A stretch of 44,872 nt of DNA from Candidatus Woesearchaeota archaeon (GTDB lineage Archaea; Nanobdellota; Nanobdellia; SCGC-AAA011-G17; GW2011-AR20): assembly GCA_016181245.1 (NCBI GenBank), contig JACOZR010000022.1, forward strand, positions 1 through 44,872, read 5' to 3'. A program made the translations under genes and the position numbers. The first letter of the stretch is position 1; every line of letters begins with the position of its first letter. The notes beneath the pieces were generated by a model, which was not told the DNA's origin, searched no databases, and saw only the letters and a list, made by a program, of their open reading frames with translations. This document shows, piece by piece, positions 5,136 through 18,359 of the stretch.

Positions 5136-6089
5136 ATGGAAAAATTCAGAAAAATCATTAAATTTGGAACCTCATCTCTTATACTATCTTTACCTATTGA
5201 TTGGACTAAAAAAAATAAACTTGGAAAGGGAGATCTTCTCTCTATTTCTGAAAATGTTAATAATGAACTTGTTTTAAGTGTTCCATCTAAAAACAGGTCT
5301 GAACAAAGAAAAGAAATTGTTATTAATACTGAGAACAAGGATTTAACTAGAATTAAAAGAGAAATTGTTTCCTCTTACATTAATAACTATGGTATTATAA
5401 GAATTAAAGGAAAACTTTCTGCAAATTTTATTAAAGAGATTAAAAATATAATAACAGGATTAACTGCTTTAGAGGTAGTAGAACATAATGCTGATTCTTT
5501 AGTTGCTAAAGACTTTTTAGATATAGGAGAGATAACTTTTCAAGAAATATTAAGGAAAATGGATACTATAACGAGATCTATGATCGTTGATTTGAAAAAT
5601 ATATCCAAAGAAGATACTTCTCAGGCTATCCTTGAAAGAGATGAAGAAGTAAATAGGATGGTTTATTTGATTATAAGGACTATGAGATTTACTTTAGATA
5701 CTCCGAGTTTATCTCATAAAGAAAATAGAATAAGCATGGGGAATATTTTAAATGTGTGGGATGTTGCATTGACTGTCGAAGGTATTGCAGATGATATAAA
5801 AAGAACAGCAAGAGAATTTTCAAAAATGAGCACTTCTTTGCAAACTAAGAAAGAACTTTTAAAGGTTTTGGAGGAAATTGAGACTTTTTATTGGGAAACT
5901 ATGAAAGCGTATTATACTAATGATGTAGAATTGGCCTTTAGACTTTCTTTAAATAAATCAAATCTTTCTAAGAAGTGCAATGAATTGCATGAAAAAGTGT
6001 GGAATGTCAGGTATGCTCCTATTATTTTAGAAAACTTTAAAAGTATAGTTTCTTCAATTCATAATCTTGGAAGAAGAGTTTACAGTTAA
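5136..6089 (+). CDS. AbrB/SpoVT-domain plus PhoU-like regulator
   Basis: 317 aa. The N-terminus KFGTSSLILSLPIDWTKKNKLGKGDLL is a swapped-hairpin AbrB-type pattern, followed by a helical PhoU-like region. It is paralogous to 29102-29980. Confidence 0.7.
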   Translation: MEKFRKIIKFGTSSLILSLPIDWTKKNKLGKGDLLSISENVNNELVLSVPSKNRSEQRKEIVINTENKDLTRIKREIVSSYINNYGIIRIKGKLSANFIKEIKNIITGLTALEVVEHNADSLVAKDFLDIGEITFQEILRKMDTITRSMIVDLKNISKEDTSQAILERDEEVNRMVYLIIRTMRFTLDTPSLSHKENRISMGNILNVWDVALTVEGIADDIKRTAREFSKMSTSLQTKKELLKVLEEIETFYWETMKAYYTNDVELAFRLSLNKSNLSKKCNELHEKVWNVRYAPIILENFKSIVSSIHNLGRRVYS

Positions 6090-6136
6090 AACAAACTTTT
6101 TTAAGCTTTGCTACAGAATATTGAATTAGGATTAAT

Positions 6137-7624
6137 ATGACCCAACTTAGTTCTATTGGTACTGTATCTACTCAAGGTAGTGTGAACCATAATTCAAATG
6201 GATTGGAGAGCACTGCTTTGCTATATACGCCTTCTGTTGAATACTATAGGGAAATCCTTGCAAGAGATTATGTTATAGAACAACTTGCTAGAAGAGGTTA
6301 TGATTTTAACATTGATGATATCGCTAGTGAGCAATCTGCTGATCTGGGAATTGGGGGGACACTTAATCGAAGAACGCACCTTAAAAAAGTTGTACTAAGA
6401 GATGCTGCACAAAATACACTTCCTTTAAGAATATTTCTTAAGATAGCTTCAGAAATTAATTTGGGAACTGACGCTTCTTTAGCAAATAGGCATCATGAAT
6501 TGTCTGATAGCATGTTATACCAGTATGAGCAAATGCGCCTTTGGAATAGCCTTGGTCTTCCAACTCCAATTGTTTTTGGTTTAGATACTGTTAATCATCA
6601 GAGAGTTACTTACTATCAATTAGCAATGGAGAGTTGGGATGGATCTACACACGACTTGAATCTACTAGCACTTAGGGAATTAGGCAATAGGATAAGGGGG
6701 TCTAGGAAAACTTATGGTCCTGATGAACAAGCTGCTTATTTAAGGCAGCTTGATGAAGAAAAAAGTTTTATCGTTAATTCTAGCCTTAATACAGTTAGGG
6801 CATTTCATATTATTGGCACTGAAGGACTTAGAAACTTAACAAAACTTCCTACACTGGGCATCTTTTGTCATGATGACGTAGAAGAATACTTTTTAAGAAA
6901 AAGAGCAATAAACTATGCTTCTCAGTTTTATAGATATACTCATAACATGGAGAAGGACGAATCTGTTCCTCGTTTATTCTTGGAAAAAACAGTTGCTTCA
7001 CTTGTTCATCTTGTTGAACCTTTTAGAGATGAATCTAGATATGTTTATGCACAAGGTGATGAATACCCTCAACATTTTCAATTTTTTTCTGGATTTAATG
7101 GGAATAGATTAAGTGGAATATTTGATGCAGATCATGCTATGATGACTATACCTGTATATTCTTATGCAAAACTGTTAACATCTTCTCTTCTCAATCTTAC
7201 TTTCGAAGAAGAACTTTCTTATTTATCGCAGGTTTTCTCTTTTGAACATCCGTGCTCAGGAGGGATATACCCTAGTCATCTTTTTGGTAACCTAGACATG
7301 ATTCAGAGAGATTATGTTCTTACTTCATTATTAACTCGTTTTTTTAATTTGGGGAAAAAAGCAGCTGATACATATGTGCACCCACAACATCATCTTAGAT
7401 ATGAAAGTGGAATTTCTTATTCTCCCGGCAGAACAAGATTCCCTATTAGGGATTTAATTCCTGTTTCTGTAAGCTATCCTAGTGCGGATTACGAAATTGA
7501 GACCCAAAAGAAGGCTCTTGAAACTCGTTTAGAAATTTATGAGCCCTTAGAATTTCTTAACCGCCAAGATTTAAGGGCTATTTCTGAATTTAAGAGGTAT
7601 CTTACTAATAATAACCTTTTATAA
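6137..7624 (+). CDS. hypothetical protein, possibly a degenerate kinase-like (APH/choline-kinase) fold
   Basis: 495 aa. The segment YAQGDEYPQHFQF...LSGIFDADHAMM lines up with the HGDxxxxN...IDxxD catalytic and Mg-binding loops of aminoglycoside-phosphotransferase-like kinases, with Q in place of H. Confidence 0.3.
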   Translation: MTQLSSIGTVSTQGSVNHNSNGLESTALLYTPSVEYYREILARDYVIEQLARRGYDFNIDDIASEQSADLGIGGTLNRRTHLKKVVLRDAAQNTLPLRIFLKIASEINLGTDASLANRHHELSDSMLYQYEQMRLWNSLGLPTPIVFGLDTVNHQRVTYYQLAMESWDGSTHDLNLLALRELGNRIRGSRKTYGPDEQAAYLRQLDEEKSFIVNSSLNTVRAFHIIGTEGLRNLTKLPTLGIFCHDDVEEYFLRKRAINYASQFYRYTHNMEKDESVPRLFLEKTVASLVHLVEPFRDESRYVYAQGDEYPQHFQFFSGFNGNRLSGIFDADHAMMTIPVYSYAKLLTSSLLNLTFEEELSYLSQVFSFEHPCSGGIYPSHLFGNLDMIQRDYVLTSLLTRFFNLGKKAADTYVHPQHHLRYESGISYSPGRTRFPIRDLIPVSVSYPSADYEIETQKKALETRLEIYEPLEFLNRQDLRAISEFKRYLTNNNLL

Positions 7625-7722
7625 TTTTTACTACTTACTAATAATAAAGTTTATAAAGCCCCTTTTCTTATGTGTTTTAACAGAAGTCTTAAAAATGAAA
7701 ATGGAAATAATCTTTCAGGAAC

Positions 7723-9438
7723 ATGACACAAACAAGATCTCTAATATGTCTACTTACAGGCCATGTAGACCATGGAAAGTCTCAGATAATTGAGACTATA
7801 TCAAAAAAAAAGATTTTAAATAAAGAAGCGGGAAGGATTACCCAGAAAATAAGTGCTGTTAAAGTTGACATAAATGATATTAATTCTTTAGCAGGAAGAC
7901 TATTAAAAAATTTAAAGATAAAAATCAAGATTCCTGGGTTTTTGTTTATTGATAGCCCGGGGCATGCTGCTTTTACAAACTTAAGAAAAAGAGGGGGAAA
8001 TTTAGCTGATATTGCCATATTAGTAGTTGATGCAAATGAGGGAATATTAGCTCAAACTCAAGAAGCTATTGAAATATTAAAGAAATGCAAGACTCCTTTT
8101 ATAATTGCCTTAAATAAAATTGATTTGGTTTCAGGATGGAGGCAAAATGTTGGAAAGGATATTTTAACAAATATTAATTCTCAATCTGAAACAACTAGAG
8201 ATCTATTAGATAATAAGTTGTATACTCTTGTTGGAAAATTATATGAACTCGGATTTAATGCTGAAAGATTTGACAGAGTAAGTGATTATACAAAGCAGGT
8301 TGCTATTGTTCCTATTTCTGCCAAGACTACTGAAGGATTGCAAGAATTATTAGCTGTTTTAGTGGGTTTAGCACAAAAATATTTAGAAAATGAATTGAAT
8401 GTTGAACTTTCTAAAGGAGGTAAAGGTGTTGTTTTAGAAGTTAGGGAAGATAAAGGTTTAGGAACCGTTTTAGATGTGGTTTTGTATGATGGCAAGATTT
8501 CTGTTAATGATGAATTTGTTATTGGAGGAATTGAAAATCCAATTGTTACTAAAGTAAGAAATATATTTGAAATGAAAAAACCAGTTGAGCATGTAGAAGC
8601 TGCTGCTAATATAACTTTAATTGCTCCAAATGTTGAGGAAGTTTGTGCTGGAATGCCTTTAGCCGTTGTTGACAAATTAAATGATGTAAATAAATTAAAA
8701 AAAGAAGTTCAAGAGCAAGTTGAGGAAGTTGTTATTGAGACTGGGAAAGAGGGTATTGTTGTTAAAGCAGATAGTTTAGGAAGCTTAGAGGCTTTAGTTT
8801 GCTTGCTTAAAGATAAAAAGATTCCAATCAAAAGAGCTAGTGTTGGGGAAATTTGCAAAGGAGATATTGCAGTAGCTGAATCGCAAAAAGATGAGATTAA
8901 CAGAGTGATTGTTGGATTTAATATTAAAGATGTAAAGGAAAATGTTCAAGTTATAACCTCTGATGTTATTTATACAATTATTGAGAAATTTGAGAAATGG
9001 AGAGAGTATACTAAGAAAGACTTAGAAACTAAGAAGTTAGATAGATTAACAAGGCCTTGCAAAGTTTATATTATTCCTAATTTTGTTTTTAGACAGAGCA
9101 ATCCTGCTGTTGTTGGCGTTGAAATCTTAAAGGGAACATTAAAAACAACTATGCCTTTAATGAATGGAACTGGAAAAAGAATAACTGAAGTGAAAAGCAT
9201 TCAGGAAGAGGGAAAAAATGTTAATGAAGTTTGCAAGGGAAAACAAGTTGCTGTTTCTCTGCCTGGAGTTATAGTTGGAAGGCAGGTAATTGAAGGACAA
9301 GTTTTAGTTTCTGATCTTAATGAAGAAGAATTTAGAAGATTAAAAGAGATGAAGACTTTTTTAACTCCTGATGAAATTGAATTATTAAAGGAAATTGCTG
9401 AGTCTAAAAGGAAAAATAATCCTATGTGGGGAGTTTAA
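7723..9438 (+). CDS. infB: translation initiation factor aIF5B (IF2-type GTPase)
   Basis: 571 aa with an uninterrupted GHVDHGKS, plus DSPGHAAF and NKID. The domain order is typical of aIF5B. Confidence 0.93.
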   Translation: MTQTRSLICLLTGHVDHGKSQIIETISKKKILNKEAGRITQKISAVKVDINDINSLAGRLLKNLKIKIKIPGFLFIDSPGHAAFTNLRKRGGNLADIAILVVDANEGILAQTQEAIEILKKCKTPFIIALNKIDLVSGWRQNVGKDILTNINSQSETTRDLLDNKLYTLVGKLYELGFNAERFDRVSDYTKQVAIVPISAKTTEGLQELLAVLVGLAQKYLENELNVELSKGGKGVVLEVREDKGLGTVLDVVLYDGKISVNDEFVIGGIENPIVTKVRNIFEMKKPVEHVEAAANITLIAPNVEEVCAGMPLAVVDKLNDVNKLKKEVQEQVEEVVIETGKEGIVVKADSLGSLEALVCLLKDKKIPIKRASVGEICKGDIAVAESQKDEINRVIVGFNIKDVKENVQVITSDVIYTIIEKFEKWREYTKKDLETKKLDRLTRPCKVYIIPNFVFRQSNPAVVGVEILKGTLKTTMPLMNGTGKRITEVKSIQEEGKNVNEVCKGKQVAVSLPGVIVGRQVIEGQVLVSDLNEEEFRRLKEMKTFLTPDEIELLKEIAESKRKNNPMWGV

Positions 9439-9473
9439 GAAAACTTTAAAAAGGGTTTTCATTAAGGATTGAT

Positions 9474-9878
9474 ATGGCAGAATTTAAGATTGTTGTAGGA
9501 AATAAAGGCAAATGCTATAGCAAGGCTTTAAATGAGAATGAAAGTTCTGCTTTTTTAAATAAAAAAATGGGTGAAAAGATTGAAGGCAATTCTTTTGGTT
9601 TTTCTGGATATGAGATGGAAATAACTGGTGGAAGTGATAAGGCTGGGTTTCCTATGAGACATGACTTATCTGGGATTCATAGAAAAAAAATTCTTTCTGT
9701 TAAGGGGCAAGGACTAAATGTTAAAGGAAAAGGCATTAGAAAAAGAAAAACTGTTGTTGGAAATACTATAGGATTACATATTGCTCAGGTTAATCTTAAA
9801 GTTGTTAAAGAAGGAAAAGATTCTTTAGCTAAAATTTTAGGCAAAGAAGAAAAAGTTGAAGAGAAAAAAGAAGAATAA
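9474..9878 (+). CDS. rps6e: ribosomal protein S6e
   Basis: 134 aa with MAEFKIVVGNKGKCY...GFPMRHDL...KRKTV and a Lys/Glu tail. Confidence 0.9.
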   Translation: MAEFKIVVGNKGKCYSKALNENESSAFLNKKMGEKIEGNSFGFSGYEMEITGGSDKAGFPMRHDLSGIHRKKILSVKGQGLNVKGKGIRKRKTVVGNTIGLHIAQVNLKVVKEGKDSLAKILGKEEKVEEKKEE

Positions 9879-9880
9879 AC

Positions 9881-11392
9881 TTAATTCAATTCTCTTTGCC
9901 AAGTATCATAAAGGCTTATTTCTTTTTTTGTTAATAACCCTACAGGCGGGATACTTACTGTTGTTGGTCTTCTTGCTTTTCCAGTCCTGTAGTCATCTGC
10001 TAATAATCTTTTTTCTAATTGGTTTATTGCTGGATGTTGACTAAGATTTAATGCGGGTAATTTTTCTTCACTTCCGTATAAGAGAGGTGCATCGCTTAAA
10101 TAACTATAAACTAGTAAAGGAAGCTTGAAATTTTGGTTATCAAATAAGATGTATACTACTTCAGTTCCTCTAACGTGAGTTATGCCTATTGTTTCAAAAG
10201 GAGTTGACTTGAAAACAGTTGCAAATCCCTGATATGTGTAACCTTTTTTTGCTAAATCAAAATGGGCTTTTTGAATAATCTTTCTTACTTGGGTATCATT
10301 CATTCCTCTTAAATTTTTTACAACTTCTCTTGTGATATTACCTGTTTTTAGTAGGTTCATGAACTGGGTTGAAGTAACTTCTTTTTCACGGTCTAATAAG
10401 TATGCATCTGTTTCTGCATAATCTAAGCCAAGACCATAACGAGCTACTATTGCATTAAATACTAAATCATTACTAAGATTATCAGTAAACCTAAAAGGCA
10501 TTAGTACCTCTGCCTCTAAATCATCCTCTAGAAACTTTATTTCTCTAACTCCTTGTTTTGCATGTTCTAAAGCTATCTTTGTTAACGCAACTGCTCCATG
10601 ATAGGGTATTAATACTGTTTGTCTTGATCTTGTTGAGTCCAAGCCCATTTTTTCTAGATCTCTGAGAATTTTTTCATCAACATTGCACCATAGCCAACCT
10701 TTTCTTTTGTGATGTCTATGAAATTGAACGCCTGAATCTACATCAAATTCTTGCAAGATATATGGAGATTTTGATCTACTCAAAAAAGGATTGCTTACTT
10801 CTACATCCCAATAGCTCATTGCTTCTGGAAGATTTCCATGCTCTTTGCTTTTTACTCTTAAAATTACCCCTCCTTGGTGTGAGAACTTTCCAAGCTGAAC
10901 TACATTTTCATCAATTACTTTTTGAGTCATTAAAGGATTGGCTGATGTTAAATTTTTTGTACTAATATGCCTATGAGAAGGAACTCTTAAGCCTTCTACT
11001 TCTTTATACATTACCCTTCCTTCTGTGTCTTTTAATAACTTAACTTCTGAGTGTTGTATATCGTGTTCTAACCCTGCAAAATCAATTCTTGTTAAGTCTT
11101 CTTGGCTATCTGCATACATTCTCCCATTTTTTCTAGTTGATTCAATCCATTTAGCGATGTGGGGATGTTTTTCAGCTTCTCCCGAGGTCTTATCAACTTT
11201 TTTTGCTAGTTCATCAAATTGAGTTCTTCTTTGTTCTCTGTCCATTAAAGCAAAATGAGCTTCAGCAAAAGCACTTGGTGAAAATAAAATATCTCTGGAA
11301 CCTTGTCTCCACATATAACCATGATTAAGGGGATGAATTCCTTGTCCTTGAACTTGGTCTTCTTCTACTTGATTTTGGAGATTTTTTTGCAT
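9881..11392 (-). CDS. hypothetical 503-aa protein, last gene of a three-gene accessory operon
   Basis: Long ORF rich in His, Arg and Trp relative to the core genes. No domain recognised. Its stop is 2 nt from the convergent rps6e stop. Confidence 0.6.
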   Translation of the reverse strand: MQKNLQNQVEEDQVQGQGIHPLNHGYMWRQGSRDILFSPSAFAEAHFALMDREQRRTQFDELAKKVDKTSGEAEKHPHIAKWIESTRKNGRMYADSQEDLTRIDFAGLEHDIQHSEVKLLKDTEGRVMYKEVEGLRVPSHRHISTKNLTSANPLMTQKVIDENVVQLGKFSHQGGVILRVKSKEHGNLPEAMSYWDVEVSNPFLSRSKSPYILQEFDVDSGVQFHRHHKRKGWLWCNVDEKILRDLEKMGLDSTRSRQTVLIPYHGAVALTKIALEHAKQGVREIKFLEDDLEAEVLMPFRFTDNLSNDLVFNAIVARYGLGLDYAETDAYLLDREKEVTSTQFMNLLKTGNITREVVKNLRGMNDTQVRKIIQKAHFDLAKKGYTYQGFATVFKSTPFETIGITHVRGTEVVYILFDNQNFKLPLLVYSYLSDAPLLYGSEEKLPALNLSQHPAINQLEKRLLADDYRTGKARRPTTVSIPPVGLLTKKEISLYDTWQRELN

Positions 11393-11430
11393 GTTATTTT
11401 TAAAATAAACAATCTTAAAAGCTTTTTTAA

Positions 11431-13284
11431 TTAGATTTGCATAATGGGCGCTTTAAATTTCATTGTGTTGACTTTTCCTTCTCTGATTTTTTTGGTTCTT
11501 AATAATTGCATAATTTCTCTTCTACTAGTTTTTGAGTCTCCCACAGAAACCAACATTTTTCCTATTTCTATGACGCTTCTTTTTGGATCCCATGTACCGA
11601 TTGGTTCTAGTGTTGTATCTTGAGATTCTATCAATCTTTTAACTTTTTCTAAATCTGTTGCTCTTTTTTCATAAGCTAGACGAGCTGCTTCATTTTCTGC
11701 AACTATTTCTTTTTGAGTTTTTCCATATACTAATACTTGAACATCATTTATTAACCCTTTTGGTATTTGTTCTAGAGATCTTTGTGCCAGTCTATTATTT
11801 TCAGCAATTTCTGATTCTAACTTTCTTTGATGAATTATTTCTTCTATGTAATCTCTTACTTGTTTTTCTGGAAGAATGATTACACCTCTATTTGGTTTAG
11901 AGCTTAAAAATTCTGCAAGTTCAGGTTGTACATTATAACAAGCAAGAGTGCCATGAACTATTTCATCTAATTGTTGATAACCTGAATTATTTTTTCTTCT
12001 CCAGTTAGACATTGCTATGTTACCTGATATTGTTGCTGCATATGCATCTAATTGCTGGCGAGCTTTTTTAGCAGTTTCATACTTTTCTGAATCTACTGCA
12101 TGTGGCTTAACTTCTATAACCATGAATTTTCCGTCTTTGGTTTTGTATACTAAGTCGCATCTCATCCATGGAATTTCTCTTTCACCCATTCGTGCCTTAG
12201 CAAATTCAGCAACTTCCGTGTATTGAGAATTTAGTCCTTTTTTCAATGCTGCTAGCAACTCCCTGTTTCTTTCTTGTAACTCTTGAGGCATTTCAATATC
12301 TTCCTGGAAATCTGCTGCTAAAAGTTCTGAATCGCCTATAAGTTCTTTGTAATTTTTTGGATCTGTTAGATAAGTAACTAGATATAGGTGCCTTAAACTT
12401 GCTGCATTGAGAAACTTTTTCCTTTTTTCTTGGTTGAGAGGGATTTCTTCAAGCCTTTCTTCTACTACTTCTTCTAGAATGTAGGGATGAGGGTTAGGGC
12501 TTCCCTTTGCTTGCCCATTTCCATCTTTTTTCCCTGCCCATAATTTGTTTACAATTCCTCTTACAGAATCTTCTGTTCTTTCCTCTAAACCTTGCTCTCT
12601 TAGTATTTCATTTAATCTTTTTCTTATAATCTCATATGATCCTTTTCTCATACGCCCTTTTTCGGTTAATCCTGTTTCTTCGACATAGTTAATTATTTCA
12701 TTGACGATTACATCTTCTTCTAAACGGCCATCTGGAATTTTCCTCAATCTTACGATATTTCCTTGATTGTTCTCGATGTGCTGCAATCCAATTTCAGAAA
12801 ATCTTGGGTCTAATGCAATAATTTCTTCATACAATTTTCTTCTTCCTTCATATGTGTAACCGTAGGTGCCATAAAAAGATGAATCTACTTGTTGGATTAT
12901 TGGACTAGATAATAATTGTCTTTTCCCTTCTTGTCTTAATTTTGAATCTTCTTCTAATACTTTTTCTCCTATCTTTCTTAGTATTTGAATATATTCTGAA
13001 CTTCCTTTTTCTGGAACTTTTAATAATAACTCATCTACTCCTTTAAACTGAGTTGGTGAATATCCTAGGAAGCTTATTATTTTTAGAAAGTCTTGTTTTT
13101 TAGGATTTCTTTGCGAACAAATGTAGCCCATTACTTTTGATGGGGATACTTCTAATAACCTACTAAATCCATCTATACTTGTTTCATACGCAGCTCTTTC
13201 TCTATCTAAGAATTCTGAAAAAGAAATCTTCTTTTCCTTTTCAGTTTCTTCATCTACATCTATAAAGTATAATTTTTGCGTCAT
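11431..13284 (-). CDS. HTH (XRE-like) protein with a PD-(D/E)xK nuclease-like core
   Basis: 617 aa. The N-terminus SIDGFSRLLEVSPSKVMGYICSQRNPKKQDFLKIISFLGYSP looks XRE-like. Residues 377-393, CDLVYKTKDGKFMVIEVK (about nt 12106-12156), match the D...E-x-K restriction-endonuclease/NucS-type pattern. Confidence 0.55.
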   Translation of the reverse strand: MTQKLYFIDVDEETEKEKKISFSEFLDRERAAYETSIDGFSRLLEVSPSKVMGYICSQRNPKKQDFLKIISFLGYSPTQFKGVDELLLKVPEKGSSEYIQILRKIGEKVLEEDSKLRQEGKRQLLSSPIIQQVDSSFYGTYGYTYEGRRKLYEEIIALDPRFSEIGLQHIENNQGNIVRLRKIPDGRLEEDVIVNEIINYVEETGLTEKGRMRKGSYEIIRKRLNEILREQGLEERTEDSVRGIVNKLWAGKKDGNGQAKGSPNPHPYILEEVVEERLEEIPLNQEKRKKFLNAASLRHLYLVTYLTDPKNYKELIGDSELLAADFQEDIEMPQELQERNRELLAALKKGLNSQYTEVAEFAKARMGEREIPWMRCDLVYKTKDGKFMVIEVKPHAVDSEKYETAKKARQQLDAYAATISGNIAMSNWRRKNNSGYQQLDEIVHGTLACYNVQPELAEFLSSKPNRGVIILPEKQVRDYIEEIIHQRKLESEIAENNRLAQRSLEQIPKGLINDVQVLVYGKTQKEIVAENEAARLAYEKRATDLEKVKRLIESQDTTLEPIGTWDPKRSVIEIGKMLVSVGDSKTSRREIMQLLRTKKIREGKVNTMKFKAPIMQI

Positions 13285-13285
13285 T

Positions 13286-13810
13286 TTAATCTCTTAATAA
13301 ACGGGTAACTATTTGTGTTGCTTTGTTTCTTCCAGTTCTAACGTCGCTTGGTGATGATGGCATAGACACAAATTTTTTCGGATCATCTATTCTTGCAATT
13401 CTGTGGTGACCTTTTCCATCTTCTCCGTCTATATACATCAAACCGATTTTGGCTAACACCCTTCTTTGATACGGTGTTGCTCTGCCTTTCCACTCTCTGA
13501 AGGCTTCTTTTAAATCCTTTAAAGCTTGGGGGTCTATATTTTGAGTATATTCTTCTGGTTCTACAGTTTCTTCCCCAATTCCTTCTAGTATTTCATTAAC
13601 TCTTGTTACTAATTCTCCGTTTTGTTGTCTAAGAACGAGATCTCTCATTTCTTGAGCTATTAGTTCTGTTAACTCTCTGTCAGCAACTTCTCCACTCACT
13701 TTTAAACAGGAACCATTATCAGATATAAGTGCCTCTACCCTATCTGGACCTAATTGGATTAAATATCTCTTAGTATCTCCTACTTTTCCGCAATAATTAA
13801 CTAGTGTCAT
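13286..13810 (-). CDS. hypothetical protein with a HicA-like C-terminal region
   Basis: 174 aa. The C-terminus GKGHHRIARIDDPKKFVSMPSSPSDVRTGRNKATQIVTRL resembles the HicA (YcfA) pattern GSH...VP.H...L..GT...I. The N-terminal half could be HicB-like. A TAAAATG junction links it to the next gene. Confidence 0.35.
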   Translation of the reverse strand: MTLVNYCGKVGDTKRYLIQLGPDRVEALISDNGSCLKVSGEVADRELTELIAQEMRDLVLRQQNGELVTRVNEILEGIGEETVEPEEYTQNIDPQALKDLKEAFREWKGRATPYQRRVLAKIGLMYIDGEDGKGHHRIARIDDPKKFVSMPSSPSDVRTGRNKATQIVTRLLRD

Positions 13811-13929
13811 TTTAACCTATTTTTGTTATTATTTGGTAGTAAATATGCTTTATAAATCTTACTATTTTTGACTACTTTTTAGGGGTTATAAAATAAATAC
13901 TTATAAAATAGGAATTTTGAGGTATCTTT

Positions 13930-15846
13930 ATGCCAGTATTTACACAATACAAAGCTACAAAGAAAAGTAGAATTGATGGACTTGTTAATTATGTAAGAAC
14001 AGAACTGGGAGAATATAGATCTGGCTCGTTGGATAATTTATTGACATGCAATGAGTTGGGTGCTGTATTTGGGATATCATCTGGCTATGCTTCTTTACTT
14101 ATCCAAAGAAACTTTTCTTTGGCAGATAAAAACTATAGGATTGGGATAGTAGAACTCCAAAGAGGGAGAAGAGTTTCGGCTTCAAAAACTGGAATTAAGA
14201 AGTCTAGGCAGTCTGTAGAAAGAACCTCTAAAACTAAATTAAAAAATTTACTTATTAAACTGGATGGATTAAAACCTTATATTCTTGATGAGTTACGGGC
14301 GTATAAGGGAGGGCGTATTCAATTTTTGTCTTCAAACGATGAGCTTGCTTCACTTTATGGGGTTACTCACACAACTATACGTAAAATATCTCGAAGAATT
14401 TTGAATAAAAAAGATTCTTCACTTAGAGATAAAATATTAAGGGAAAACACTAGGAGAAAAATTTCTATTTCTAGGTCGAGTTATAATGAGGAAGGACGAA
14501 AATTATTGATTTCTGAAGTAAAAAGAGAACTATTCTTATATTCTTCTGGCAAGTCTTTTGCAGTTTCTTCTTCGGAGGAATTAGCTGAAAAATTTGGTAT
14601 CAGTTCTCAAACAGTTTATCTATGGATGAAAGAAGATTTACCTGATTCAGAAATTAGATCTAGAAACCAATATTTAGTTCAATCGCGGAAATTAAGATTA
14701 ACTGAGCAAAGACGAATTATACATGAAGATATAATTGACTTTATAAAAAAAGAGATTGTGGCTCATAGGGAAGGAAAAATTTCTAGAGTGACAGGTACAA
14801 CAAAACTGATGAGTAAATTTGGTATAACTCAAGGTCGTTTATCTTTTATTATTGATGAAAACCTTACAAAAGATGACATAGCATATAGGATTAGTGCCAT
14901 GAATAAACAACGTGCGGATGATTTTACTGCTGCTAGAACAAAAGAAAATTTATTAGACTTTTTAGATTATGTAAGTGATGAAATCCGTAGACATAGGTCT
15001 GGTGATTTGCCTAGACTTACTTTTGCTACTCAATTAGGTGAAGAATTTGATATCTGTGGCACTGCTGCATCTTATAGACTTCGTAAATATCTGGACAGAC
15101 AGGATTTTGATTATTGGTTAAATATTGTTAAGCAGCAAAAACTGAGTGATATGGCTAGTCTTAAAGGAGAAAAACATCCAATGTTTGGCAAGAAACATTC
15201 TCAAGAAACAAGACTTAAAATATCTAATGCTAATTCAAAAAAAGAAGGATTTCCGCAATGTATTGATTTTGTAAAAGCTGAAATAGAATTACATAAATAT
15301 GGGAATATAAGCAAATTTTCTAGTATAGGCTCTTTAGGTGAAAAATTTGGAATTTGTGGCCATACTATTCTGAAGTGGCTCAAGAAGGGATTATCTAAAG
15401 AAGAGCTTGATTATAGAAGAGATGTTACTAGGTCTCAAGTGGGAGTAAGGGGGGCAAATCACTATTTGTTTAATGGTCATATGCGTCTTAAGTATAGCGT
15501 TTTTTTTACAGATGTTATGAGATCTTATATCCGGGCAAGGGATAATTTTGAATGCCAGCTGTGTGGTGCAACTGAAGGAAGAAGAGCCCATCATGTTCAT
15601 CACATAGATTATAATAAGAAAAATGATGGTGAGATGAATTTAATACTATTATGCGGTAGATGCCACCCATCTATCGGTTCTTCTTTAATCTACTTGGGAG
15701 AAGTATGGAATTTCTTGTGTAACAAAAGGATAGAAGACATTTATGAGGATATGTTTGAAGAAAGATTTAGAGATTTGCAGCAATTTAAATTTGATTTGAT
15801 GGTTATAAATGGATTAGAAGGTTTATTGGATCAACATTTTGATTAA
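13930..15846 (+). CDS. HNH endonuclease with a NUMOD3 motif and six tandem HTH-type repeats
   Basis: 638 aa. Six ~55-aa repeat cores spaced ~75-105 aa apart share the core h..Eh..a+.G.....s...L...FGI....h. NUMOD3 GEKHPMFGKKHSQETRLKIS is at about 15163-15225. HNH CQLCG...HHVHHIDYNKKNDGEMNLILLCGRCH is at about 15535-15669. Confidence 0.75.
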   Translation: MPVFTQYKATKKSRIDGLVNYVRTELGEYRSGSLDNLLTCNELGAVFGISSGYASLLIQRNFSLADKNYRIGIVELQRGRRVSASKTGIKKSRQSVERTSKTKLKNLLIKLDGLKPYILDELRAYKGGRIQFLSSNDELASLYGVTHTTIRKISRRILNKKDSSLRDKILRENTRRKISISRSSYNEEGRKLLISEVKRELFLYSSGKSFAVSSSEELAEKFGISSQTVYLWMKEDLPDSEIRSRNQYLVQSRKLRLTEQRRIIHEDIIDFIKKEIVAHREGKISRVTGTTKLMSKFGITQGRLSFIIDENLTKDDIAYRISAMNKQRADDFTAARTKENLLDFLDYVSDEIRRHRSGDLPRLTFATQLGEEFDICGTAASYRLRKYLDRQDFDYWLNIVKQQKLSDMASLKGEKHPMFGKKHSQETRLKISNANSKKEGFPQCIDFVKAEIELHKYGNISKFSSIGSLGEKFGICGHTILKWLKKGLSKEELDYRRDVTRSQVGVRGANHYLFNGHMRLKYSVFFTDVMRSYIRARDNFECQLCGATEGRRAHHVHHIDYNKKNDGEMNLILLCGRCHPSIGSSLIYLGEVWNFLCNKRIEDIYEDMFEERFRDLQQFKFDLMVINGLEGLLDQHFD

Positions 15847-16024
15847 AAACAACCTTATTTTAACCTTCTTTTTAATATTAAAAAATTCACTTAATTTCTT
15901 TATAAATCTTTCTACAATAAAAATTTTTTTTGGTCTCTAGAAGCCTTAAAACCTCTGAATTTGGGCATTTCAGCTTGGGAAAAGTATATAAATTTGGAGC
16001 CTGTTTTTTTATTAAAAAAGGTGA

Positions 16025-18359
<2,335 letters not shown>

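What the first reader, a model, noticed from the sequence alone, without database searches (positions are those of the whole stretch)
9881..13810. Three-gene accessory operon: HicA-like protein, HTH plus PD-(D/E)xK nuclease, and an unknown 503-aa protein
These genes lie on the minus strand between rps6e and gyrB. Gene 1 (174 aa) has a HicA-like C-terminus (GKGHHRIA...VSMPSSPSDVRTGRNKATQIV). Its N-terminal half could be HicB-like (SGEVADRELTELIAQEMRDLV), so it may be a toxin-antitoxin fusion. Gene 2 (617 aa) is joined to it by a TAAAATG junction. It combines an XRE-type HTH with a nuclease core, CDLVYKTKDGKFMVIEVK. Gene 3 (503 aa) is entirely unassigned. A sensor/regulator plus a nuclease plus a large unknown effector is the kind of architecture seen in prokaryotic immunity and abortive-infection systems. 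I cannot place this combination in any named system.
Basis: partly seen in the sequence, partly recalled or inferred. Interest (0 to 1): 0.62.

Follow-up and report, generated by a model that had tools for sequence, protein, structure and literature searches.

The report
Nested accessory genes, not one operon
The three genes are real, but they are not one conserved system: gene 3 is an independent orphan gene, while genes 1 and 2 plus a neighbouring HNH endonuclease form a strain-specific 4.4-kb insert carrying a rare, undescribed DNA-binding nuclease that is distantly related to the Shedu anti-phage nuclease.

Summary
All three ORFs and the TAAAATG junction are present.
- a HicA-like C-terminus in gene 1;
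- an XRE-type HTH in gene 2;
- a PD-(D/E)xK nuclease in gene 2, closest to the Shedu/NucS type, with D-ExK-QxxxY intact in 29 of 34 relatives.

The HicB-like N-terminus is not supported.

The three-gene-system reading fails. No fetched locus holds more than one of the three families. A 92%-identical relative keeps gene 3 and its promoter-like spacer, but has an IS200-type transposase and a truncated SNF2 gene where genes 1 and 2 and the HNH gene lie here. Two same-genus genomes have S6e directly next to gyrB. So 9875-15842 is nested accessory DNA at one hotspot.

Gene 3 is under purifying selection (dN/dS 0.14). Its ancestral neighbour is an SNF2-helicase/methyltransferase, which is missing here.

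The gene 2 family is very rare: 48 clusters among 1.84 billion, 2 of 401 DPANN and 1 of 401 CPR genomes. No defence or Pfam model recognises it. It recurs with the HNH protein's HTH-repeat module (adjacent twice, fused once).

Most likely the insert is a horizontally moving nuclease module, for defence or selfish. Its function is inferred. Both structure predictions failed.

The parts
9875..15842 (.). Whole accessory block (gene 3, gene 2, gene 1, HNH gene). It fills a single insertion site in the S6e|gyrB spacer.
   Evidence: The S6e-gyrB region of same-genus genome G002 aligns to the window at 9370-9874 and resumes at 15843-16116, with only about 52 nt in between. G001 and G002 have S6e directly next to gyrB and none of these genes.
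9881..11392 (-). Gene 3: a 503-aa orphan protein with patchy distribution. It is functional, and its ancestral divergent partner is an SNF2-helicase/methyltransferase.
   Evidence: Homologs at 93%, 50% and 42% identity lack genes 1 and 2. dN/dS is 0.138 against L006. It was found in 5 of 240 genomes of the order. SNF2 neighbours are shown. No family hit. The AF2 model is unusable, pLDDT 36.
11393..11444 (-). A/T-rich promoter-like spacer upstream of gene 3 (AAAAAAGCTTTTAAGATTGTTTATTTTAAAAATAAC). It includes the last 14 nt of gene 2.
   Evidence: It is identical in L006, where a divergently oriented Y1 transposase gene lies upstream instead of gene 2. Its function as a promoter is inferred.
11445..15842 (.). 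Strain-specific 4.4-kb insert: the gene 2/gene 1 bicistron plus the divergent HNH gene.
   Evidence: blastn of the window against L006 is collinear at 88-92% except for this segment. L006 has about 1.3 kb here, holding an IS200-like Y1_Tnp and a 173-aa SNF2 fragment. There are no terminal repeats or target-site duplication, no tRNA or Rfam hit, and GC content is like the flanks.
11431..13284 (-). Gene 2: a 617-aa multi-HTH nuclease and member of a rare, undescribed family.
   Evidence: 48 representatives among 1.84 billion proteins. Found in 2 of 401 genomes of the class and 1 of 401 CPR genomes. No Pfam, NCBIfam, PADLOC or PHROG hit. No match in viral contigs, phages or plasmids.
13045..13227 (-). 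Gene 2 N-terminal XRE-type helix-turn-helix (about aa 20-80).
   Evidence: hhalign of the family N-terminus against 30 genuine HTH_3 domains scored 24.0 (P 1.6e-4), in register. Shuffles gave 8.0 +/- 1.9, maximum 14.9.
11815..12435 (-). Gene 2 PD-(D/E)xK nuclease domain (aa 284-490) of the Shedu/NucS-like type. The catalytic block D377...E391-x-K393...Q411-xxx-Y415 lies at 12040-12156.
   Evidence: Motif conservation in 29 of 34 members, and H299 in 36 of 38. hhalign against DPANN SduA_C domains scored 36.1, with D, ExK and Q in register and z = 12.4. Comparison with Cas4/RecB-type PDDEXK_1 is not meaningful.
13286..13810 (-). Gene 1: a 174-aa protein with an orphan N-terminal half and a HicA-fold C-terminal domain. 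It is coupled to gene 2 by a 1-nt spacer.
   Evidence: The N-terminal half has no relative and is not HicB-like.
13289..13528 (-). Gene 1 HicA-like (dsRBD-like) C-terminal domain, aa 95-174, containing G-H-H.
   Evidence: hhalign against genuine HicA scored 25.4, z about 7. PADLOC HicA-like gave E = 0.027. The same domain ends 448-aa and 502-aa proteins in G015 and G012.
13930..15846 (+). Divergent 638-aa HNH endonuclease with NUMOD3/NUMOD1 and six HTH repeats. It is the third gene of the insert.
   Evidence: Pfam NUMOD3 2.8e-10 and HNH 8.9e-7. Single copy in this genome. Among 60 relatives there is only one short HNH-domain match. Its HTH-repeat module recurs next to the G660 gene 2 homolog (E = 4e-10) and is fused to family member P0015 (2.7e-27).

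Best explanation
The region is not one system. It is two accessory units nested in a single insertion hotspot between the core genes S6e and gyrB of a DPANN archaeon.

Unit A is gene 3. It is a functional orphan protein of unknown biochemistry. It appears to have its own promoter (inferred from a conserved spacer). It originally came as a divergent pair with an SNF2-helicase/methyltransferase fusion, and that partner has been lost here.

Unit B is a 4.4-kb strain-specific insert that replaced the SNF2 gene. It carries:
- a tightly coupled bicistron of gene 1 (unknown N-terminal half plus a HicA-fold, probably RNA-binding or RNase-like, C-terminal domain) and gene 2;
- a divergent HNH/NUMOD3 endonuclease with six HTH repeats.

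Gene 2 has an XRE-type HTH, a second helical DNA-binding region, a Shedu/NucS-type PD-(D/E)xK nuclease and a small C-terminal domain.

Inferred mechanism: gene 2 binds DNA through its HTH modules and cleaves it with the D377/E391/K393/Q411 active site. Gene 1 acts as a small regulatory or sensing partner, as KELA does for the DUF4263 nuclease KELB in KELShedu. The module as a whole is a horizontally moving conflict element, either defence or a selfish nuclease. The HNH/NUMOD endonuclease may contribute DNA targeting or mobility.

Shown: gene presence and absence, boundaries, remote homologies, motif conservation, rarity, and purifying selection on gene 3.
Inferred: nuclease activity, the gene 1/gene 2 partnership, and a defence or selfish role.
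For: Structure of the locus:
- Collinearity with L006 breaks only at 11445-15842.
- The empty site in G002 and G001 is shown.
- The L006 SNF2 fragment is 74% identical to the full SNF2-MTase that lies divergent to the 50% gene 3 homolog.
- No SNF2 gene was found in the window's genome.
- Gene 3 dN/dS is 0.14, against 0.03-0.07 for core genes.

Gene 2:
- The family alignment shows the conserved W-R-C-D...E-V-K-Q...NA-KARQQ-xx-Y.
- hhalign to Shedu SduA_C gives z = 12.4, in catalytic register.
- hhalign to HTH_3 gives z about 8.
- Distribution is sporadic and crosses domains: Woesearchaeota, a second DPANN genome, and Peribacteria.
- The G660 homolog sits in an operon next to a protein with the same HTH-repeat module as the window's HNH protein. 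It lies in a toxin-antitoxin-rich island with AbiEii, DUF6036 NTase, MNT-HEPN and a HicA-like gene.
- P0015 carries that module as a fusion.

Gene 1: the HicA-fold domain is supported.

Precedents:
- Shedu has a conserved DUF4263 core with very diverse N-terminal domains, including wHTH types; its closest structural relative is EndoMS, and 11 instances are in DPANN (PMC10441436).
- KELShedu is a bicistron of a small partner and a DUF4263 nuclease with a 3-bp spacer, and it needs the conserved Q (PMC12577705).
Against: - No curated model (Pfam DUF4263/SduA_C, PADLOC SduA, NCBIfam) recognises the window's gene 2. Only 2 of 38 family members give weak SduA_C hits.
- hhalign probabilities are moderate, at 44-59%.
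- Both AlphaFold models failed (pLDDT 36 and 39), so no fold-level confirmation exists.
- Gene 1 accompanies gene 2 only in this genome. L014 and L015 homologs are stand-alone, with no HTH-repeat or HicA-like neighbour.
- The HicA-like neighbour in G660 is not specifically related to gene 1, and HicA genes are common in this order (74 of 151 genomes), so that adjacency may be chance.
- The window's gene 2 departs from the family consensus at several highly conserved non-catalytic positions (Q300L, D363K, Q394P, N404T), which could mean relaxed constraint.
Confidence: 0.6

Rival explanations
1. Genes 1, 2 and 3 form one three-component immunity or abortive-infection operon, with a HicA/HicB-like sensor-toxin, an HTH nuclease and a large unknown effector.
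For: The genes share a strand and are tightly spaced (1 nt and 38 nt). All are accessory relative to same-genus genomes. The nuclease and HicA-like domains are real.
Against: No locus contains two of the three families together. The 92% relative keeps gene 3 and its upstream spacer without genes 1 and 2. Gene 3's recurrent neighbour is SNF2, not a nuclease. PADLOC gives no hits. The HicB-like part is at noise level.
Confidence: 0.07
2. The insert is purely selfish. Gene 2 is a free-standing homing-type endonuclease of a new PD-(D/E)xK class, and the HNH/NUMOD gene is a second one. Together they spread the insert by cutting empty S6e|gyrB sites and being copied in by recombination. Gene 1 is a passenger.
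For: - The junctions are sharp, with no target-site duplication or inverted repeats, and the flanks stay homologous.
- The insert lies between essential genes.
- The distribution is extremely sporadic and crosses domains.
- Modular sequence-reading DNA-binding domains are present: two family members carry NUMOD3, and the HTH-repeat module is shared with the HNH/NUMOD3 protein.
- Stand-alone copies lie next to housekeeping genes, for example IleRS in L014.
Against: - All three insert genes are single-copy in this genome.
- There are no relatives in phage, plasmid or viral collections, where homing endonucleases abound.
- The nuclease core aligns best with an immune nuclease (Shedu) and not with a known homing family.
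- The G660 copy sits in a toxin-antitoxin/defence-type island.
Confidence: 0.22
3. Genes 1 and 2 are a HicA-type toxin-antitoxin pair in the canonical toxin-first order. Gene 1's HicA-fold domain is an RNase toxin. Gene 2 neutralises it and autoregulates through its XRE HTH, with the nuclease domain as an added effector.
For: The order (HicA-like first), the 1-nt coupling and an XRE HTH at the start of the second gene mirror hicAB organisation. A G-H-H aligns with the HicA G-S-H catalytic motif. The G660 copy is surrounded by TA modules.
Against: - Gene 1 is 174 aa with an unrelated N-terminal half and falls below every HicA model threshold.
- Gene 2 lacks the HicB N-terminal fold, and most gene 2 relatives have no HicA-like neighbour.
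- The same HicA-like domain ends large non-toxin-like proteins in relatives, where the His is shifted.
Confidence: 0.1

Closest known systems
Shedu (SduA, DUF4263/PF14082) immune nucleases, including Type 1G (DNA-binding N-termini) and two-component KELShedu
   Same: The PD-(D/E)xK core has D, ExK and an essential Q in the same register. A nuclease is preceded by variable DNA-binding domains (PMC10441436). A small upstream partner gene is coupled by 1-3 nt, as in KELA-KELB (PMC12577705). Occurrence is sporadic and island-like.
   Different: Pfam, PADLOC and NCBIfam Shedu models do not detect it. The nuclease is internal and followed by a ~120-aa C-terminal extension. The family has its own conserved elements (GHQ-L-AYLMDP-NY, W-R-C-D, NA-KARQQ). 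The partner has a HicA fold and is unrelated to KELA. Anti-phage activity is untested.
EndoMS/NucS-type minimal RecB-like nucleases
   Same: The motif set D...E-x-K...Q-xxx-Y has similar spacing, read from the sequence and from my own knowledge of NucS. EndoMS is the closest structural relative of Shedu (PMC10441436).
   Different: There is no NucS N-terminal domain. Direct comparison with NucS was not run. The domain context (multiple HTH modules) is different.
HicA toxins of HicAB type II toxin-antitoxin systems (PF07927)
   Same: Gene 1 residues ~115-170 align over the whole HicA domain, including the G-x-H position.
   Different: It scores below the family threshold. It is 174 aa with an orphan N-terminal half. 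There is no HicB partner, and the N-terminus is not HicB-like. The domain subfamily also ends 448-502-aa proteins.
Free-standing HNH/NUMOD homing endonucleases of phages and introns
   Same: The neighbouring 638-aa gene has HNH, NUMOD3 and NUMOD1. It lies in a strain-specific insert with clean junctions between essential genes.
   Different: It has six tandem copies of an HTH module that is also found next to, or fused with, gene 2 family nucleases. There is no intron or intein context. Homing has not been shown.
SNF2-helicase partner proteins, such as SWIM-domain proteins encoded next to bacterial SNF2 genes (recalled from Makarova et al. 2002; a lead only)
   Same: Gene 3 homologs sit divergent to an SNF2 ATPase in two lineages. 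Distant relatives carry a CxC...CxH pattern, and the His is invariant.
   Different: Pfam finds no SWIM domain. The window's subfamily has lost most of the Cys ligands. Distant relatives neighbour TrmB-like regulators, not SNF2.

Membership tests
Co-conserved three-gene system (genes 1, 2 and 3) | The three families co-occur in other genomes. | tested here: not met
   tblastn of all three proteins against every fetched locus found no locus holding more than one of them. Contexts are shown.
HicA toxin (PF07927) | Scores above the curated family threshold. | tested here: not met
   No Pfam hit at E <= 1. The genome-wide PF07927 search finds nothing in G000. PADLOC HicA-like gives E = 0.027.
HicA toxin (PF07927) | Remote homology over the whole domain, including the G-x-H catalytic position. 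| tested here: met
   hhalign scored 25.4 (P 2.3e-4) over 51 columns, and 0 of 200 shuffles reached it. GHH aligns with GSH.
HicAB toxin-antitoxin | A small stand-alone toxin with an adjacent or fused HicB antitoxin. | tested here: not met
   The gene 1 N-terminus against 14 HicB neighbours scored 12.6, against 11.0 +/- 2.3 for shuffles. No HicB hit in any library.
PD-(D/E)xK nuclease superfamily | A conserved D ... (D/E)-x-K catalytic triad on a beta-hairpin. | tested here: met
   D377, E391 and K393 (plus Q411 and Y415) are present in 29 of 34 members. The fold itself could not be confirmed because AF2 gave pLDDT 39.
Shedu / DUF4263 (PF14082, PADLOC SduA) | Detected by the family's curated HMMs. 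| tested here: not met
   No hit for the window protein or for 7 other members in PADLOC. 2 of 38 members give weak SduA_C hits, best E = 0.006.
Shedu / DUF4263 (PF14082, PADLOC SduA) | The nuclease core is homologous, with catalytic residues in register. | tested here: met
   hhalign scored 36.1 (P 9.5e-5) over 128 columns, z = 12.4 against shuffles.
Shedu / DUF4263 (PF14082, PADLOC SduA) | Protects against phage or virus infection. | not testable with these tools
   This needs expression and challenge experiments.
RecB/Cas4-type PDDEXK_1 (PF12705) | Profile similarity in register with the catalytic motifs. | tested here: not met
   Pfam gives E = 0.44. hhalign against 18 DPANN PDDEXK_1 proteins gives 3% probability and is misregistered. 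Its score of 23.4 lies within the shuffle range, whose maximum is 27.1.
XRE-type HTH (HTH_3, PF01381) | Homology over the five-helix domain. | tested here: met
   hhalign scored 24.0 (P 1.6e-4), and 0 of 100 shuffles reached it. Pfam itself hits only 2 of 38 members weakly.
HNH/NUMOD homing endonuclease (neighbour gene 13930-15846) | An HNH catalytic domain plus NUMOD DNA-binding motifs. | tested here: met
   NUMOD3 2.8e-10 and HNH 8.9e-7, both above threshold. phrog_8446 gives 6.4e-16. Homing activity is untested.
SWIM zinc finger (gene 3 family) | CxCxnCxH ligands, and detection by PF04434. | tested here: not met
   No Pfam hit in gene 3 or in 5 relatives at E <= 0.1. The ligand pattern is present only in distant relatives and mostly lost in the window's subfamily.

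The most novel reading that the evidence does not exclude
Genes 1 and 2, possibly with the HTH-repeat/HNH protein, are the founding example of an undescribed immune module specific to ultra-small episymbionts. Its components would be:
- an XRE-HTH nuclease with a Shedu-like core, exchanged between DPANN archaea and CPR bacteria;
- a HicA-fold partner;
- a modular HTH-repeat specificity protein.
Probability: 0.2. Interest if true: 0.65.

Novelty: new variant of a known kind. Interest (0 to 1): 0.42.

Why it matters
DPANN archaea and CPR bacteria have tiny genomes and few recognised defence systems, and many of their genes are orphans. Three points follow from this locus:
- A core-gene junction (S6e|gyrB) acts as a swap site for accessory cassettes.
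- A rare nuclease family occurs in both DPANN archaea and CPR bacteria, and current defence-finder models miss it. It gains a testable catalytic motif and an approximate place beside Shedu/NucS.
- Tight spacing and a shared strand proved a poor guide to function here. The real associations are gene 3 with an SNF2-methyltransferase, and gene 2 with the HTH-repeat module.

If the nuclease module is shown to defend or to home, it would extend Shedu-like biology to episymbiotic archaea and bacteria.

Tried and rejected
- AlphaFold2 on gene 3 (4-sequence alignment) and gene 2 (3-sequence alignment) gave pLDDT 36 and 39. The models are unusable, so no fold search was run. Only sequences the tool permits could be supplied, which kept the alignments shallow.
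- PDB profile searches for the gene 2 and gene 3 families gave only spurious hits.
- Pfam, NCBIfam, PHROGs and PADLOC gave nothing significant for the three proteins.
- Cas4/RecB-type PDDEXK_1 homology was rejected.
- A HicB-like gene 1 N-terminus was rejected.
- The SWIM domain in gene 3 is unconfirmed.
- Viral contigs, phage records and plasmid records hold no relatives.
- No terminal repeats or target-site duplication, no tRNA and no Rfam family were found.
- The bacterial-type promoter and terminator scan is uninformative for an archaeon.
- The first two related-loci runs failed because the alignment was too divergent.
- The contexts of about 45 other gene 2 family members could not be fetched. 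Their proteins came from the representative search, which the contig look-up does not accept.

Full report
**Observation.**
The three minus-strand ORFs exist exactly as described: gene 1 at 13286-13810 (174 aa), gene 2 at 11431-13284 (617 aa) and gene 3 at 9881-11392 (503 aa). The gene 1/gene 2 junction reads GAT-TAA-A-ATG. It has NUMOD3 (2.8e-10), HNH (8.9e-7) and many HTH hits. None of the three proteins gives a significant hit in Pfam, PADLOC, PHROGs or NCBIfam. The best are PADLOC HicA-like at E = 0.027 for gene 1 and PDDEXK_1 at E = 0.44 for gene 2. The genome is a 0.9-Mb, 51-contig assembly, and an earlier scan note calls it a DPANN archaeon.

**Is it one conserved unit? No.**
Gene 3 has three homolog clusters, at 93%, 50% and 42% identity. 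Their contigs show three arrangements:
- S6e, gene 3, an IS200-like Y1 transposase, a 173-aa SNF2 fragment, then gyrB (L006);
- a 703-aa SNF2-helicase/methyltransferase divergent to gene 3 (L007-L012);
- aIF5B divergent to gene 3, followed by NDK (L013).

None of them has gene 1, gene 2 or the HNH gene. Gene 2 relatives in a Woesearchaeote (L014), a Peribacterium (L015) and a second DPANN genome (G660) have no gene 1 or gene 3 nearby. The C-terminal domain of gene 1 recurs only at the end of unrelated 448-aa and 502-aa proteins in two genomes of the same family.

**Anatomy of the locus.**
The window and L006 are collinear at 88-92% identity except for window 11445-15842, which holds gene 2, gene 1 and the HNH gene. 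L006 has about 1.3 kb there instead. The left junction lies 52 nt upstream of the gene 3 ATG. That stretch is A/T-rich and promoter-like, and it is identical in L006, where no gene 2 precedes it. Gene 3 therefore probably has its own promoter, though this is an inference.

In the two same-genus genomes, S6e is directly followed by gyrB. G002's spacer aligns to the window up to 9874 and resumes at 15843. So 9875-15842 is accessory DNA filling one site, and its right edge is the same as in L006.

The SNF2 fragment in L006 is 74% identical to the full SNF2-methyltransferase next to the 50% gene 3 homolog. The window's genome has no SNF2 gene (the genome is 83% complete). The most economical history has three steps:
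1. an SNF2-MTase/gene 3 cassette entered the S6e|gyrB spacer;
2. in the window's lineage the SNF2 gene was replaced by the gene 2, gene 1 and HNH insert;
3. in L006 the SNF2 gene was truncated and an IS200-type element arrived.

The insert has no terminal repeats or target-site duplication, no tRNA or Rfam element, and no compositional deviation.

**Gene 2.**
An exhaustive HMMER search found only 48 representatives among 1.84 billion proteins. The ten looked up are all singleton metagenomic clusters called "hypothetical protein". The family profile hits 2 of 401 genomes of the class and 1 of 401 CPR genomes. Nothing was found in viral contigs, phages or plasmids.

The alignment shows a conserved block, GHQ-L-AYLMDP-NY ... 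vDF ... W-R-C-D-mIF ... G-Y-V-E-V-K-Q-A ... NA-KARQQ-xx-Y. D377, E391, K393, Q411 and Y415 are all present in 29 of the 34 members that cover it, and H299 is present in 36 of 38.

Profile-profile comparisons gave these results:
- Against seven genuine Shedu SduA_C domains from DPANN genomes: score 36.1 (P 9.5e-5, 59% probability) over 128 columns, with D, ExK and Q in register. Column shuffles gave 12.2 +/- 1.9, maximum 16.9.
- Against Cas4/RecB-type PDDEXK_1: not meaningful.
- The N-terminus against 30 genuine HTH_3 domains: aligned in register, score 24.0, shuffles 8.0 +/- 1.9.

Weak Pfam hits in other members fall on Myb, sigma-70 region 4 and other HTH families, on NUMOD3, and on PD-(D/E)xK clan families. 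PADLOC recognises no member. The AF2 model was unusable.

The window's copy keeps the catalytic set but differs from consensus at Q300L, D363K, Q394P and N404T.

**Recurrent partners of gene 2.**
In G660 the homolog (460 aa) is the last gene of a same-strand run. It is preceded, with a 1-nt gap, by a 415-aa protein whose N-terminus is the same HTH-repeat module as in the window's HNH protein (E = 4e-10, matching several repeats). A 139-aa membrane-anchored HicA-like protein lies convergent just downstream (Pfam 2.8e-4, below threshold; hhalign P 3.9e-5). The surrounding island holds AbiEii (6.8e-28), a DUF6036 nucleotidyltransferase and an MNT-HEPN pair. One family member (P0015) carries the HTH-repeat module fused to its N-terminus (2.7e-27). 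The bacterial copy and the Woesearchaeote copy have no such neighbours. The link between gene 2 and the HTH-repeat module rests on two adjacencies and one fusion. That is better supported than any link to gene 3, but it is not universal.

**Gene 1.**
Residues 95-174, together with the two related C-termini, align over the whole HicA domain of 18 genuine DPANN HicA toxins. The score is 25.4 (P 2.3e-4), against 10.5 +/- 2.1 and a maximum of 18.3 for shuffles. G-H-H lies opposite the HicA G-S-H. The N-terminal 94 residues have no relative and score at noise against 14 HicB antitoxins. Gene 1 is therefore a HicA-fold protein, but it is neither a canonical HicA nor a HicB-HicA fusion.

**Gene 3.**
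It is patchy: 5 of 240 genomes of the order have a match, three of them only distant, and none of the 26 other genomes of its own family does. It is nevertheless functional. Against L006 its dN/dS is 0.138, compared with 0.034-0.065 for gyrA, gyrB and S6e. The distant relatives (442-463 aa) carry a CxC...CxH pattern with an invariant His and sit beside TrmB-like regulators. Pfam sees no SWIM domain, and the window's subfamily has lost most of the Cys residues. The AF2 model was unusable, and the PDB profile search gave only an artefact. Its biochemistry remains unknown. The one contextual clue is the SNF2-helicase/methyltransferase partner, which matches the SNF2-helicase components of PADLOC systems (ZorD, DpdE, DrmD); I read this as shared SNF2-domain similarity.

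**Mechanism and comparison with known systems.**
Shedu nucleases combine a conserved DUF4263 PD-(D/E)xK core with extremely diverse N-terminal domains, including DNA-binding wHTH types. Their closest structural relative is EndoMS, and a few instances occur in DPANN (PMC10441436). KELShedu is a bicistron of a small partner and the nuclease, separated by 3 bp, and it depends on the conserved Q (PMC12577705). Genes 1 and 2 resemble this in architecture and in the catalytic register, but they fail the membership test because no family HMM detects them.

I therefore describe the pair as working like a Shedu-type, DNA-binding nuclease with a small partner, without filing it as Shedu. The rival reading is a selfish, homing-type nuclease insert. 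It is favoured by the clean junctions between essential genes, the NUMOD and HTH-repeat modules, and the extreme sporadicity. It is disfavoured by the absence from virus and plasmid collections and by the defence/TA-type context in G660.

**Verdict.**
What is actually present is a nested accessory region at a core-gene hotspot. It contains an undescribed, very rare Shedu/NucS-like HTH nuclease family found in both DPANN archaea and CPR bacteria, and a separate orphan gene whose natural partner is an SNF2-methyltransferase.

Noticed in passing
L006:12021-12713, against window ~9436-9474: The 92%-identical relative has an extra 230-aa ORF with no Pfam hit between aIF5B and S6e, which the window lacks. 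This is another core-gene junction with variable content.
   Followed up: partly
window 17946-18359; L006:5208-6537; L086:4861-5280; L087: The gyrB-gyrA spacer is also variable. The window has a 137-aa ORF, and G002 has a 40%-identical 139-aa ORF. L006 has three ORFs (130, 131 and 179 aa). In G001 the window's 137-aa ORF has no match and no ORF of at least 110 aa fills the ~300-nt spacer.
   Followed up: partly
L007:3285-5396 (and L008-L011, L018): A 703-aa fusion of an SNF2-family helicase with a class I SAM methyltransferase lies divergent to the gene 3 homolog. The pair appears in genomes of two different GTDB families, at 74% identity for SNF2 and 50% for gene 3. This suggests a transferable two-gene cassette of unknown function.
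   Followed up: partly
L004:427-1773 and L005:1495-3003: 448-aa and 502-aa proteins in two related genera end in the same HicA-like domain as gene 1. Each sits next to a conserved 205-aa membrane protein. This appears to be a DPANN-specific use of the HicA fold as a C-terminal module.
   Followed up: no
L082 (G660:C1:297500-317400), about 5389-15907: A dense toxin-antitoxin/defence-type island in a second DPANN genome. It holds AbiEii with a putative AbiEi, a DUF6036 nucleotidyltransferase pair, MNT-HEPN and a membrane-anchored HicA-like protein. It also holds a four-gene same-strand run (187, 355, 415 and 460 aa) that ends in the gene 2 homolog. The 187-aa and 355-aa proteins have no family.
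   Followed up: partly
window 13806-13821 and 13280-13295: Genes 1 and 2 share the start context TTAAAATGAC (repeat D16). The TAAAATG heptamer noted elsewhere in this window may be a general start-codon context of this genome rather than a coupling signal.
   Followed up: no
L077, L078, L079 (G104, G105, G114): Distant gene 3 relatives (442-463 aa, with a CxC...CxH pattern) are each adjacent to a TrmB-like HTH regulator. This context is conserved and differs from the SNF2 pairing of the closer subfamily.
   Followed up: partly
window 11398-11420 and 13886-13908: A 23-nt A/T-rich element (TTTTAAAATAAACAATCTTAAAA, 78% identical copy) occurs upstream of both gene 3 and gene 1. It may be a shared promoter architecture or just low-complexity sequence.
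   Followed up: no
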